From the IMG/VR virus record IMGVR_UViG_3300030099_006533: a stretch of 64,000 bases of DNA, one strand, 5' to 3'. A model generated the notes under the pieces. The model did no database searches. It was not told where the DNA came from and saw only the letters and a program-made list of their open reading frames with translations. This DNA comes from a virus. The position numbers were made by a program, and so were the translations under genes. The number at the start of each line of letters is the position of its first letter. Positions within the stretch are counted from its first letter, which is position 1. Of this stretch, positions 1 through 63,979 are shown piece after piece.

Positions 1-2
1 CC

Positions 3-194
3 CAGCTTCGTCAGGATCTGGTTGAAACCGGCCGCGATGCTCTGCGTCTCTCTGAAGAGCCAGCCAGTACAACCGTGGAAGTACAGGAAGAAGACGATGA
101 GGAGTTACCTAGTGTCATTACACAAGAGGTTCTAGATTCCCGCCGTGTTAAGCCACGCGACGCCGGTACTGAGGAAGAGTCGAGTGAATCGTAA
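3..194 (+). CDS. 5'-truncated acidic hypothetical protein
   Basis: Open frame from the window edge (QLRQDLVETG...EEESSES*), stop at 192-194 overlapping the next start. Confidence 0.5.
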   Translation, partial: QLRQDLVETGRDALRLSEEPASTTVEVQEEDDEELPSVITQEVLDSRRVKPRDAGTEEESSES

Positions 195-507
195 GCAGCG
201 ACGTGCCATGGCTAGCCAGCAAAAGAAGGCCATCAAGAATTCTAAGGGCGCCCAAGATGATGTCGGCGCCAAGATGGCCTTGTTCGGGCACCTGCCAGAT
301 GCGTGCACAGCATGCAACAAGCCCTTTGATAAGAAGGACCAGTCTATGGTTATGTCATGGCACGTCACTGTTCGTGAGAAAGAAGAGAAAGTAAACTTAT
401 ACTGCCCTCCTTGTTGGTCGAAAGCCATGGAGGTTGTAAAGCAGCTTCAAGAAGATATGGAAAAGGAAGAGTTCAGTCATGAGCATCAAAAGCACGCTAA
501 CGTATGA
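184..507 (+). CDS. hypothetical protein with CxxC...CxxC Zn-ribbon
   Basis: CTAC and CPPC motifs; GTG start at 184 overlaps the previous stop. Confidence 0.65.
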   Translation: MNRKQRRAMASQQKKAIKNSKGAQDDVGAKMALFGHLPDACTACNKPFDKKDQSMVMSWHVTVREKEEKVNLYCPPCWSKAMEVVKQLQEDMEKEEFSHEHQKHANV

Positions 508-59975: not shown

Positions 59976-60209
59976 ATGTGGCAATTTTGGAAATGGAATG
60001 GGAAGTACATTCAGGGAGATCTGATTAGTACACACGACAGTAAAGAAATGGCCATCGAGCGAGCAGAAAAAGAATTCAACGGTGGCATCATCTTTACAGA
60101 AGAGGTCAGAAGAAGAAAAAAGAGAATTTGGGTTGATGATAAAGCCCACACACCGGTAGGAATTATCGTAAACACATCCAGCGGGGGTGCTAAGGTTTCG
60201 ACAGGGTAA
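59976..60209 (+). CDS. hypothetical protein; 3' end overlaps tmRNA 5' end
   Basis: AAGGAG upstream; stop at 60207-60209 inside ssrA. Confidence 0.55.
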   Translation: MWQFWKWNGKYIQGDLISTHDSKEMAIERAEKEFNGGIIFTEEVRRRKKRIWVDDKAHTPVGIIVNTSSGGAKVSTG

Positions 60210-60514
60210 GAAAGAGAAAGAGTGCAAGCAGGAAAGACACATCCTTAAAAGTTCAAAAACTATAGTTGCAAATAACAACGACTACTTCGAACAGCGCTTA
60301 GCCGCTTAATAGGGAGGCTGATCAGGGCCTTCTATCCAATCTGGTCACCCCAACAAACAAGTTGTAAAAATTAAAAAACTCAATGCAACAGGATGGTAAG
60401 CATTGTTTTATAACCATCTATCTTTGTCAGTAGGTGATAGAAACTGACTAAGCTTGTGAATGACTTCTATTGGACTTATTGTGGACGCGGGTTCGATTCC
60501 CGCCACCTCCACCA
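60183..60514 (+). ncRNA. ssrA: tmRNA with tag (A)ANNNDYFEQRLAA
   Basis: GGGGGTG/CACCTCC acceptor stem with G3:U70, TTCGAC, T-arm GCGGG-TTCGATT-CCCGC, ACCA end; resume codon GCA at 60268 after TAGTT; TAA TAG stops. Confidence 0.97.
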
Positions 60515-61041: not shown

Positions 61042-61072
61042 TTTAACTAAATTAGATTTTTTTTAATACTAG

Positions 61073-61098
61073 AGCGGCTCTTCGGAGCCGCTTTTTTT
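61073..61098 (+). terminator. Rho-independent terminator
   Basis: AGCGGCTC-TTCG-GAGCCGCT-TTTTTT. Confidence 0.9.
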
Positions 61099-61148: not shown

Positions 61149-61283
61149 ATGCTAGATAAAGTAAGAGCAGCAGTTGCTTGTGCTTGTTCTGACCTACTCA
61201 GCGGTGATCATCGTTGGTGCGTCCGCGGCGCCCTCGCCGTTGGCGCAGTTGTAGGTTGGTTGGCAGGCGCTAGCCTTTGCTAG
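61149..61283 (+). CDS. 44-aa membrane peptide
   Basis: Read manually; AGGAGG RBS; C-terminal TM. Confidence 0.6.
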   Translation: MLDKVRAAVACACSDLLSGDHRWCVRGALAVGAVVGWLAGASLC

Positions 61284-61409
61284 GTTAACAAACAATGGTG
61301 TTCCCTTGTTTCACTGTTTCGCTGATTCAGTAACGAGGTGGGGCGGTTAGCTGGGTGGAGGCTTAACCAATAATTTAAAAAAAATAATATATTATGATAT
61401 TATTTTTAC

Positions 61410-62101: not shown

Positions 62102-62130
62102 TTGACTTTCAATTTAATTTGGGTTATATT
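62102..62130 (+). promoter_or_regulatory. sigma70-type promoter for tRNA pair
   Basis: TTGACT-N17-TATATT. Confidence 0.7.
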
Positions 62131-62148
62131 AATAACATGATGAAGTAC

Positions 62149-62224
62149 GGGTCGCTAGCTCAACAGGTAGAGCAACGGACTTTTAATCCGTTGGTTCTGG
62201 GTTCAAGTCCCAGGCGACTCACCA
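62149..62224 (+). tRNA. tRNA-Lys(UUU)
   Basis: GGGTCGC/GCGACTC, ACGGA-CT-TTT-AA-TCCGT, GGTTCAAG, CCA. Confidence 0.96.
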
Positions 62225-62233
62225 ACAATCTTC

Positions 62234-62309
62234 TGGCCGGTAGCTCAGTGGTCAGAGCAGTCGTCTTATATGCGATTGGTCGTGGGTTCAATCCCCACCC
62301 GGCCGACCA
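62234..62309 (+). tRNA. tRNA-Ile(UAU)
   Basis: TGGCCGG/CCGGCCG, GTCGT-CT-TAT-AT-GCGAT, GGTTCAAT, A73, CCA. Confidence 0.9.

Positions 62310-62545: not shown

Positions 62546-62549
<4 letters not shown>
62325..62549 (+). CDS. conserved phage hypothetical protein
   Basis: IHINQHKIRSN...PVITVK...VVYSPDKPLSCGARVWIET. Confidence 0.75.
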
Positions 62550-63415
<866 letters not shown>

Positions 63416-63440
63416 CTCAACGAAGGGAATACATATACAC

Positions 63441-63588
63441 GGCCTCTGACAAATAATATGTGTTCCTGGGGAGCTCTGATAGGACCGCCAACTTATCATC
63501 TTCCTGCCCTTGGCGGAGGGCGAAACGATATCCTGAACGCTGGTGCGCTACCTACCCAGCACTAAAAAACAGGTAGCAGTCAGAGGCC
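63441..63588 (+). ncRNA. unassigned structured RNA candidate with kissing loops and pseudoknot
   Basis: 10-bp closing helix GGCCTCTGAC/GTCAGAGGCC; complementary loops CCGCCA and TGGCGG; GCTGG/CCAGC crossing GCTACCT/AGGTAGC. Confidence 0.7.
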
Positions 63589-63593
63589 ACTAT

Positions 63594-63669
63594 GCCGCTT
63601 TAGCTCAGTTGGTAGAGCATCGGTTTTGTAAACCGACGGTCATCCGTTCAAGTCGGATAAGCGGCTCCA
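63594..63669 (+). tRNA. tRNA-Thr(UGU)
   Basis: GCCGCTT/AAGCGGC, TCGGT-TT-TGT-AA-ACCGA, CCA. Confidence 0.95.
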
Positions 63670-63670
63670 C

Positions 63671-63697
63671 AGGCACCCTTCGGGGTGTCTTTTTTTT
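63671..63697 (+). terminator. Rho-independent terminator
   Basis: AGGCACCC-TTCG-GGGTGTCT-TTTTTT. Confidence 0.88.
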
Positions 63698-63741
63698 GAA
63701 CGAAAGCCGGTTGCACTGTATAATCTAAGCAGGTGGAAGAT

Positions 63742-63903: not shown

Positions 63904-63979
63904 GCGGGTGTAACTCAATTGGTAGAGTGTCAGCCTTCCAAGCTGAATGTTGTGGGTTCGAGACCCATCGCCCGCTCCA
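63904..63979 (+). tRNA. tRNA-Gly(UCC)
   Basis: GCGGGTG/CGCCCGC, TCAGC-CT-TCC-AA-GCTGA, U73, CCA. Confidence 0.96.

What the first reader, a model, noticed from the sequence alone, without database searches (positions are those of the whole stretch)
63441..63588. Compact ncRNA with predicted kissing loops and H-type pseudoknot between tRNA-Arg and tRNA-Thr
Seen: a 10-bp closing helix (63441-63450/63579-63588). Hairpin TGATAG/TTATCA has a loop containing CCGCCA (63485-63490), and hairpin GCCCT/AGGGC has loop TGGCGG (63511-63516), a perfect 6-bp complement. GCTGG/CCAGC (63539/63556) crosses GCTACCT/AGGTAGC (63547/63571) with an A-rich loop, a classic pseudoknot topology. It sits in a tRNA operon, where RNase P processing of the downstream tRNA could release it. 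Inference: an undescribed tertiary-structured phage RNA (ribozyme, ligand binder or nuclease-resistant decoy). Large tRNA-associated phage RNAs such as GOLLD are much longer.
Basis: partly seen in the sequence, partly recalled or inferred. Interest (0 to 1): 0.72.

Follow-up and report, generated by a model that had tools for sequence, protein, structure and literature searches.

The report
Orphan folded spacer in phage tRNA operon
The 178-base gap between two tRNA genes of this uncultured marine phage looks like a small folded RNA made together with the tRNAs, but no relative of it was found anywhere I could search, so its fold and function stay unproven.

Summary
The spacer (63416-63593) has no plausible gene. 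It is G+C-rich for this genome and lies inside one promoter-to-terminator unit with tRNA-Arg and tRNA-Thr. It folds much better than shuffles on the tRNA strand only (z -3.1 against -0.8). Chance levels are moderate: the 10-bp closing helix appears in 0.8% of shuffles, the 6-bp loop-loop match in 1.2% and the 5-bp pseudoknot stem in 6%. About 19 other local folds on the same strand of the window score as well or better.

No Rfam family reaches threshold. The pseudoknot part resembles a preQ1-I aptamer at 19.8 bits (threshold 39). It has no gene to regulate, and five complete related phages lack queuosine-pathway genes.

No homolog turned up in cultured phages, IMG/VR, 80 metagenome loci or GTDB genomes, so covariation cannot be tested. 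Relatives carry nuclease and transferase genes, extra tRNAs or nothing between these two tRNAs.

Best reading (about 45%): a lineage-specific small RNA released by tRNA processing, a positional analogue of T4 rnaD/rnaC. This scan has reported other, unrelated folded RNAs in phage tRNA operons, but no look-alike of this sequence.

The parts
62102..62130 (+). Promoter-like site (TTGACT-17-TATATT) just upstream of tRNA-Lys; likely start of the unit tRNA-Lys, tRNA-Ile, 74-aa ORF, PMM, tRNA-Arg, spacer RNA, tRNA-Thr
   Evidence: consensus scan only
63338..63415 (+). tRNA-Arg(UCU) with encoded CCA; the PMM ORF (62546-63361) ends 24 nt inside it
63416..63440 (+). 25-nt A/U-rich unpaired leader between the tRNA-Arg 3' end and the closing helix
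63441..63450 (+). Closing helix P0, 5' strand (GGCCUCUGAC)
   Evidence: pair probability 0.98-1.0
63460..63465 (+). Helix Pa, 5' strand; pairs with 63535-63540; probability about 0.5; overlaps pseudoknot P1 by 2 nt
63468..63473 (+). Helix Pb, 5' strand; pairs with 63500-63505; probability about 0.8; contains two G-U pairs
63477..63498 (+). Hairpin H1: 7-bp stem (63477-63483 with 63492-63498) and 8-nt loop ACCGCCAA holding CCGCCA (63485-63490)
   Evidence: probability 0.94-1.0
63506..63521 (+). Hairpin H2: GCCCUU/GAGGGC stem; loop region UGGCGG (63511-63516) is complementary to the H1 loop (candidate kissing contact, duplex -9.9 kcal/mol)
63522..63534 (+). 13-nt unpaired junction GAAACGAUAUCCU
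63539..63577 (+). Candidate H-type pseudoknot: P1 63539-63543 with 63556-63560, P2 63547-63553 with 63571-63577, A-rich loop ACUAAAAAAC 63561-63570. Sub-threshold match to Rfam PreQ1 over 63534-63578
63579..63588 (+). Closing helix P0, 3' strand (GUCAGAGGCC)
63589..63593 (+). 5-nt trailer ACUAU; RNase P cutting at 63593/63594 would define the 3' end (inferred)
   Evidence: inference from tRNA 5' maturation
63594..63669 (+). tRNA-Thr(UGU) with encoded CCA
63671..63698 (+). Intrinsic terminator (8-bp G+C-rich stem, UUCG loop, U8) that ends the unit; a new promoter-like site follows at 63696-63724

Best explanation
The spacer is a lineage-specific gene for a small non-coding RNA of about 150-178 nt. 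It is co-transcribed with tRNA-Arg and tRNA-Thr from the promoter near 62102 and ends at the terminator at 63671. tRNA maturation cuts it out of the precursor. RNase P cleavage at the 5' end of tRNA-Thr makes its 3' end, 5 nt after the closing helix. 3' processing of tRNA-Arg makes its 5' end. The 10-bp G+C-rich terminal helix and two very stable hairpins would protect it from exonucleases, so it would persist as a stable by-product RNA. That makes it a positional analogue of phage T4 rnaD and rnaC, which also sit directly 3' of tRNA-Arg(UCU).

Shown: the sequence features, the transcription-unit context, and the absence of any known family or homolog. Inferred: transcription, processing, stability and any trans-acting role. 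Its molecular job is unknown. My guess is a protein- or nuclease-binding decoy rather than a catalyst or a metabolite sensor.
For: - ORF-free 178-nt gap on the tRNA strand, between a promoter-like site and a strong terminator.
- G+C is 0.52-0.55. Other ORF-free gaps are 0.21-0.42, apart from five G+C-rich ones (0.51-0.61): two hold a tRNA, one holds the folded RNA of earlier finding e1-5814776, and two I did not examine.
- Strand-specific stability: z -3.06 on + against -0.77 on -, with five G-U pairs that would be A-C on the other strand. One of 1000 shuffles folded as well.
- The perfect 10-bp helix closes 148 of the 178 nt (8 of 1000 shuffles).
- P0, H1 and H2 have pairing probabilities above 0.9.
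- T4 has the same arrangement, tRNA-Arg followed by rnaD and then rnaC.
- Other tRNA-cluster spacers in relatives are A+T-rich and unstructured or coding.
Against: - No homolog was found, so there is no covariation and no sign of purifying selection.
- The closest relatives (PMM 77-79% identical) fill the same slot with unrelated genes or tRNAs. The element is young, or it is a leftover.
- RNALfold finds about 19 equally good or better local folds on the + strand of the window, most overlapping long ORFs.
Confidence: 0.45

Rival explanations
1. Incidental filler. The Arg-to-Thr interval is a recombination and insertion slot, and this 178-nt piece is a non-functional remnant or randomly acquired DNA. 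It is transcribed and discarded during tRNA processing, and its predicted fold carries no function.
For: - The slot is hypervariable. It holds a PD-(D/E)XK endonuclease and a cytidylyltransferase-like gene in L048, the latter also in L047; extra tRNAs in L046 and L047; and only 7 nt in L022.
- The piece is unique to this window.
- Comparable z-scores occur about 19 times elsewhere on the + strand of the window.
- The pseudoknot stem is at chance level (6%).
Against: - Remnants in compact phage genomes are usually A+T-rich and erode quickly. This piece is G+C-rich, and a perfect 10-bp helix encloses 148 of its 178 nt.
- Its stability is strand-specific for the tRNA strand.
- It shows no DNA or protein-level similarity to the genes that occupy the slot in relatives.
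Confidence: 0.33
2. Ligand-sensing RNA. The 3' domain (63539-63577) is a preQ1-I-like H-type pseudoknot aptamer that binds preQ1 or another guanine-like base, embedded in a larger scaffold.
For: - Rfam PreQ1 is the best non-tRNA match: 19.8 bits, E 0.11 for the 421 nt searched.
- Direct reading shows a 5-bp P1, a U right after its 5' strand, AC right before its 3' strand, an A6 run in L3, and a 3' tail that pairs back into the loop. These are the ligand-contact features listed for types II and III in PMC11625349.
Against: - The score is half the gathering threshold of 39 bits.
- An unrelated phage hairpin, found by searching for this element's own 16-mer, scores the same 20.9 bits.
- P2 is 7 bp, and no L2 loop remains beyond the AC motif.
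- There is no downstream ORF, ribosome-binding site or terminator for it to control. The next feature is tRNA-Thr, 16 nt away.
- QueC and TGT/DpdA are absent from five complete related phage genomes.
- Neither tRNA-Arg nor tRNA-Thr carries queuosine (own knowledge).
Confidence: 0.06
3. A DNA-level mobile element: a MITE-like miniature inverted-repeat element of 148 bp with 10-bp terminal inverted repeats that landed between the two tRNA genes.
For: - 10-bp perfect terminal inverted repeats and a size typical of MITEs.
- It sits in a slot that accepts insertions.
- A Vicinamibacteria MAG carries a five-copy 158-bp repeat whose termini begin with the same 10 nt.
Against: - There is no second copy in the 64-kb window.
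- No copy with these termini and related interior exists in IMG/VR or in the GTDB species-representative genomes. The number of GTDB hits, 17, is close to my own rough estimate of chance.
- The interior of the Vicinamibacteria repeat is unrelated.
- There is no clear target-site duplication (flanks CAC and ACT).
- Stability is strand-asymmetric and uses G-U pairs, which DNA palindromes do not need.
Confidence: 0.06
4. A small protein gene: the 35-codon ORF that starts at ATG 63458 (MCSWGALIGPPTYHLPALGGGRNDILNAGALPTQH).
For: The frame is open from 63458 to the stop at 63563-63565.
Against: - No Shine-Dalgarno sequence precedes it (CUGACAAAUAAU before the ATG).
- The ATG lies close inside the closing helix.
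- No similarity was found in 125 related loci by tblastn.
- It is below the size at which chance ORFs are rare.
Confidence: 0.03

Closest known systems
Phage T4 small stable RNAs rnaD (species 2, 119 nt) and rnaC (species 1, 139 nt)
   Same: These are non-tRNA RNAs of similar size inside a T4-type phage tRNA cluster, on the tRNA strand. They sit directly 3' of tRNA-Arg(UCU), with a nuclease gene in the same cluster (segB in T4; a PD-(D/E)XK gene in relatives of this phage). They are excised from a tRNA precursor and have no known function (own knowledge).
   Different: There is no sequence or structure homology: model R1 finds nothing on the T4 region. rnaC ends in a tRNA-like T arm (GGGUUCGAAUCCC) and an acceptor-like stem, which this element lacks. 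In T4 the two RNAs follow the last tRNA; here the element lies between two tRNAs.
preQ1-I riboswitch aptamer (Rfam RF00522), types II and III
   Same: A small H-type pseudoknot with a 5-bp P1, a 12-nt loop, U after P1 5', AC before P1 3', an A-rich L3 ending in C, and a 3' tail pairing into the loop.
   Different: It scores 19.8 bits against a 39-bit threshold. P2 is 7 bp rather than 3-4, and there is no L2 loop. It is not in an mRNA leader and has no expression platform. Relatives have no queuosine or 7-deazaguanine genes.
Uncatalogued folded RNAs wedged in phage tRNA operons, and the 177-nt pseudoknotted RNA at 30180-30356 of this same window
   Same: The same kind of object: 150-230-nt multi-branch RNAs closed by a long terminal helix. 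They occur as optional inserts in uncultured T4-like phages and match no Rfam family.
   Different: Those notes report relatives and compensatory changes; this element has none. It shares no short words with any stretch indexed by the scan, and it does not align meaningfully with the 177-nt RNA.
Coremin / exoribonuclease-resistant RNA motifs
   Same: Small hairpin-plus-downstream-pairing modules proposed as nuclease blocks.
   Different: Coremin needs a 3-bp hairpin with a YGAD loop, a conserved 10-nt spacer and a second hairpin (PMC6546385). I see no such unit in 63416-63593 by direct reading.

Membership tests
preQ1-I riboswitch (RF00522) | Covariance-model score at or above Rfam's gathering threshold (39 bits) | tested here: not met
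   19.8 bits, E 0.11 on 421 nt; absent from the gathering-threshold scan of the window.
preQ1-I riboswitch (RF00522) | H-type pseudoknot: P1 hairpin whose loop pairs with the 3' tail after an A-rich L3 | tested here: inconclusive
   The complementarity is present (5-bp P1, 7-bp P2, L3 ACUAAAAAAC). It is a single sequence with no covariation, and P1-type pairing occurs in 6% of shuffles.
preQ1-I riboswitch (RF00522) | Ligand-contact bases: specificity C preceded by A before P1 3', U after P1 5', A in L3 (PMC11625349) | tested here: met
   U63544, A63554-C63555 and the A run 63564-63569, by direct reading.
preQ1-I riboswitch (RF00522) | Sits in the 5' leader of a queuosine-related gene, with a ribosome-binding-site or terminator expression platform | tested here: not met
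   The next feature is tRNA-Thr, 16 nt downstream; no ORF or ribosome-binding site follows. QueC and TGT are absent from five complete relatives.
T4 rnaC/rnaD-type tRNA-operon stable RNAs | Non-tRNA gene inside the phage tRNA cluster, same strand, next to tRNA-Arg(UCU) | tested here: met
T4 rnaC/rnaD-type tRNA-operon stable RNAs | Sequence or structure homology to rnaC or rnaD | tested here: not met
   Model R1 with filters off on the T4 region: best 4.8 bits, and not on rnaC or rnaD. The folds differ.
T4 rnaC/rnaD-type tRNA-operon stable RNAs | Accumulates as a discrete stable RNA after precursor processing | not testable with these tools
Miniature inverted-repeat transposable element (MITE) | Terminal inverted repeats | tested here: met
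   10-bp perfect repeats at 63441-63450 and 63579-63588.
Miniature inverted-repeat transposable element (MITE) | Multiple dispersed copies and a target-site duplication | tested here: not met
   One copy in the window. No related copy in IMG/VR or the GTDB genomes when searched by the repeat pair. The flanks CAC and ACT show no clear duplication.
Any Rfam 15 family, including self-cleaving ribozymes, ToxI, SAM-II/V, Y RNA, GOLLD and ROOL | Match at gathering score, or any suggestive match at E up to 10 | tested here: not met
   Only tRNAs pass the threshold. The sub-threshold list holds PreQ1 and chance hits that overlap the tRNAs or the terminator.
Evolutionarily conserved structured RNA (generic criterion) | Homologs with compensatory base changes in the proposed helices, kissing loop and pseudoknot | not testable with these tools
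   No homolog was found in phages, 25 whole IMG/VR relatives, 125 PMM-linked loci, IMG/VR pattern scans or GTDB genomes.

The most novel reading that the evidence does not exclude
The element is the only sampled member of a new class of compact, tertiary-structured phage RNA. An intramolecular 6-bp kissing complex and a preQ1-I-like triple-helix pseudoknot are locked by a terminal helix, and the RNA is released from a tRNA precursor. It acts in trans, for example by binding a guanine-like metabolite or by trapping a host nuclease or a tRNA-targeting defence protein.
Probability: 0.06. Interest if true: 0.75.

Novelty: new variant of a known kind. Interest (0 to 1): 0.3.

Why it matters
If it is real, it adds to a growing set of small, non-homologous folded RNAs that large T4-like phages keep inside their tRNA operons. 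The function of that set has been open since T4 species 1 and 2 RNAs were described. A member with a ligand-pocket-like pseudoknot would offer a concrete handle: binding assays and pull-downs. As it stands it is one unsampled sequence. Its value is as a candidate for RNA-seq or probing, not as an established new RNA class.

Tried and rejected
Known families:
- Rfam at gathering score on the whole window and at E up to 10 on 63300-63720 gave only tRNAs and a sub-threshold PreQ1 hit.

Homolog searches, all negative:
- blastn in distant mode against 50,697 phage records.
- blastn-short and nhmmer against 45, then 125, PMM-linked loci.
- A single-sequence covariance model R1 against 25 whole IMG/VR relatives, 80 metagenome loci, all pattern-hit loci and the T4 tRNA region.
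- IMG/VR pattern scans with a 32-mer, two 16-mers, the kissing-loop pair, the terminal-repeat pair and the pseudoknot P1 plus A-tail. All hits were chance matches on inspection.
- A GTDB genome scan with the terminal-repeat pair gave 17 hits, close to my own rough estimate of chance. They include an unrelated five-copy repeat in one MAG.

Other ideas tested:
- Relic of the slot's protein genes: six-frame tblastn found nothing.
- Relation to the 177-nt RNA at 30180-30356: not alignable.
- tRNA-like or degenerate tRNA: neither ARAGORN nor the Rfam tRNA model finds anything in the spacer.
- Coremin: the motif is absent by direct reading.
- Partner genes nearby: neighbouring ORFs gave no RNA-related family.

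Tools unavailable:
- The metagenome records behind L046-L052 are not held for whole-record search.
- No whole genome is held for the window.

Full report
**What is there**

The window carries a cluster of stable-RNA genes on the + strand:
- tmRNA 60183-60514
- tRNA-Lys 62149-62224
- tRNA-Ile(UAU) 62234-62309
- tRNA-Arg(UCU) 63338-63415
- tRNA-Thr(UGU) 63594-63669
- tRNA-Gly 63904-63979

A eukaryote-type phosphomannomutase gene (PMM, PF03332) runs from 62546 to 63361 and ends inside tRNA-Arg. A promoter-like site at 62102-62130 precedes tRNA-Lys. A strong intrinsic terminator at 63671-63698 follows tRNA-Thr, and a new promoter-like site follows at 63696-63724. The flagged element therefore lies in a 178-nt spacer (63416-63593) inside one predicted transcription unit, on the tRNA strand.

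**Check of the observation**

A script confirmed each of the six complementarities at the coordinates given. RNAfold gives -57.6 kcal/mol for the spacer. The fold has:
- the 10-bp closing helix P0;
- an inner three-way arrangement: Pa 63460-63465 with 63535-63540, Pb 63468-63473 with 63500-63505, hairpin H1 63477-63498 and hairpin H2 63506-63521;
- a 3' hairpin, 63547-63553 with 63571-63577.

Pairing probabilities are above 0.9 for P0, H1 and H2, about 0.8 for Pb, about 0.5 for Pa and 0.6 for the 3' hairpin. The kissing contact needs the U-G closing pair of H2 to open.

**Is it more than chance?**

On the + strand z is -3.06. The reverse strand gives -0.77. The asymmetry comes from five G-U pairs and argues for an RNA-level feature rather than a DNA-level one. 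In 1000 dinucleotide shuffles:
- 1 folded as well;
- 8 had a perfect inverted repeat of 10 or more;
- 12 had a loop-loop complement of 6 or more;
- 61 had a 5-bp loop-to-flank pairing.

The spacer is G+C-rich (0.52-0.55 against 0.47 for the window). Other ORF-free gaps on this strand are 0.21-0.42. Five further gaps are G+C-rich (0.51-0.61): two hold a tRNA, one holds the folded RNA reported earlier at 30180-30356, and two I did not examine. Against this, an RNALfold z-score scan places the element only about 20th among local structures of 100 nt or more on the + strand. Thermodynamics alone does not single it out. My reading is that the secondary structure is probably real, the kissing loop is suggestive, and the pseudoknot is unproven.

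**Known families**

No Rfam 15 family reaches its threshold. At E up to 10 on 421 nt, the only non-trivial hit is PreQ1 (RF00522) at 63534-63578 with 19.8 bits; the threshold is 39.

Read directly, the domain has the preQ1-I layout and the three ligand-contact positions described for types II and III in PMC11625349: U after P1 5', AC before P1 3', and an A-rich L3. Several facts speak against membership:
- P2 is 7 bp, and no L2 loop remains.
- There is no gene or expression platform downstream.
- An unrelated phage hairpin, found by searching for this element's own 16-mer (L141), scores the same 20.9 bits.
- Five complete related phages lack QueC and TGT/DpdA, while the control genomes were positive.

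I therefore do not file it as a preQ1 riboswitch. It may still work like an A-minor-stabilised H-type pseudoknot.

**Homologs**

None was found.
- The spacer has no blastn match among 50,697 phage records.
- PMM-anchored searches gave 45 IMG/VR loci (best 59% identity) and 80 metagenome loci (best 77-79%: L046-L048).
- Neither blastn-short, nhmmer nor the covariance model R1 finds the element in those loci or in 25 whole viral records.
- Six IMG/VR pattern scans and one GTDB scan gave only chance matches.

The synteny is informative. In relatives, tRNA-Arg follows PMM exactly as here, but the interval to tRNA-Thr differs:
- L048 holds a PD-(D/E)XK endonuclease (PF11645) and a cytidylyltransferase-like gene (PF01467).
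- L047 holds the transferase-like gene and tRNA-Gln, Glu and Gln.
- L046 holds an extra tRNA-Asn.
- L022 has just 7 nt between the two tRNAs.

The interval is an insertion slot, and this filler is unique to the window's lineage. The filler shows no DNA or protein-level trace of the genes found there in relatives.

**Mechanism**

The best-supported reading is a small RNA co-transcribed with the tRNAs and freed by their maturation.
- RNase P at 63593/63594 would leave the closing helix plus a 5-nt tail.
- 3' maturation of tRNA-Arg (CCA is encoded) would leave a 25-nt A/U-rich leader that can be trimmed back to the helix.
- The G+C-rich terminal helix would then protect a core of about 148 nt.

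This mirrors phage T4, where tRNA-Arg(UCU) is followed at once by rnaD and rnaC, annotated as small stable RNAs. It is an analogy of position and kind only. R1 does not match the T4 RNAs, and rnaC has a tRNA-like T arm that this element lacks. Transcription, processing, stability and function are all inferred.

**Rivals**

- Incidental filler in a recombination slot, about one third. This is the main rival, because nothing shows selection.
- A preQ1-like ligand binder, about 6%.
- A MITE-like DNA element, about 6%. It has terminal repeats but no other copy anywhere searched, and its stability is strand-asymmetric.
- A 35-codon ORF, about 3%.

**Earlier notes of this scan**

Other agents report unrelated folded RNAs in phage tRNA operons (e1-5391333, e1-5827842) and one in this same window (e1-5814776). 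They name the same T4 RNAs as closest known. A sequence look-up found no look-alike of this element in the scan, and it does not align with the 177-nt RNA. A coremin lead (e1-5864267) does not fit by direct reading.

**Verdict**

It is an orphan candidate of a known kind and of modest interest until expression data or homologs appear.

Noticed in passing
window 62546-63415: The phosphomannomutase ORF (62546-63361) ends 24 nt inside tRNA-Arg (63338-63415), so 5' maturation of the tRNA would cut off the mRNA's stop codon. The same overlap is kept in relatives: in L001, L046 and L047 the tRNA-Arg starts about 20 nt before the end of the PMM match.
   Followed up: partly
window 63416-63593 versus L046, L047, L048, L050, L052, L022: The tRNA-Arg to tRNA-Thr interval is a hypervariable cassette slot. 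Relatives carry a PD-(D/E)XK endonuclease (PF11645), a cytidylyltransferase-like gene (PF01467), extra tRNAs (Asn; Gln-Glu-Gln), or only 7 nt.
   Followed up: partly
window 61169-61282: A 114-nt long imperfect hairpin (-57.9 kcal/mol; RNALfold z -5.0; shuffle z -3.05 for 61160-61290) lies just after the terminator at 61071-61094. It overlaps a 44-codon ORF (61149-61283) and matches no Rfam family.
   Followed up: partly
window 1-373, 33399-33539, 35364-35976: Further G+C-rich stretches without a + strand ORF (G+C 0.53-0.61) and very stable local folds (194-373 z -6.9; 35364-35549 and 35634-35808 z about -4.8). They may be more structured RNAs.
   Followed up: no
window 63338-63415: tRNA-Arg(UCU) has an A1-C72 mismatch and a G2-U71 pair at the top of the acceptor stem in ARAGORN's frame. 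Rfam's frame starts one base later and flags a non-standard pair.
   Followed up: no
L203, L206, L211, L212, L215 (Vicinamibacteria MAG CB11b_AW.47): A five-copy 158-160-bp MITE-like repeat with roughly 22-bp terminal inverted repeats that begin GGCCTCTGACCAGAATAAGCTT, most copies flanked by TTA or TAA. It was found by chance through the 10-nt terminal-repeat pattern. Its interior is unrelated to the phage element.
   Followed up: partly
L141 5005-5052: An unrelated IMG/VR phage has a preQ1-I-like hairpin (GCUGGG/CCCAGC) with an A-rich tail that pairs back into the loop (CGUAG/CUACG). It sits just upstream of the ribosome-binding site of a 98-aa ORF, between structural genes. It scores 20.9 bits, below threshold.
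   Followed up: partly
L202, L209, L213, L214 (Actinomycetota genomes): Several hits of the terminal-repeat pattern are GGCCTCTGACCTG...CAGGTCAGAGGCC pairs that bracket a tRNA or a tRNA 3' half in actinobacterial genomes. This may be a recurrent repeat associated with integration sites.
   Followed up: no
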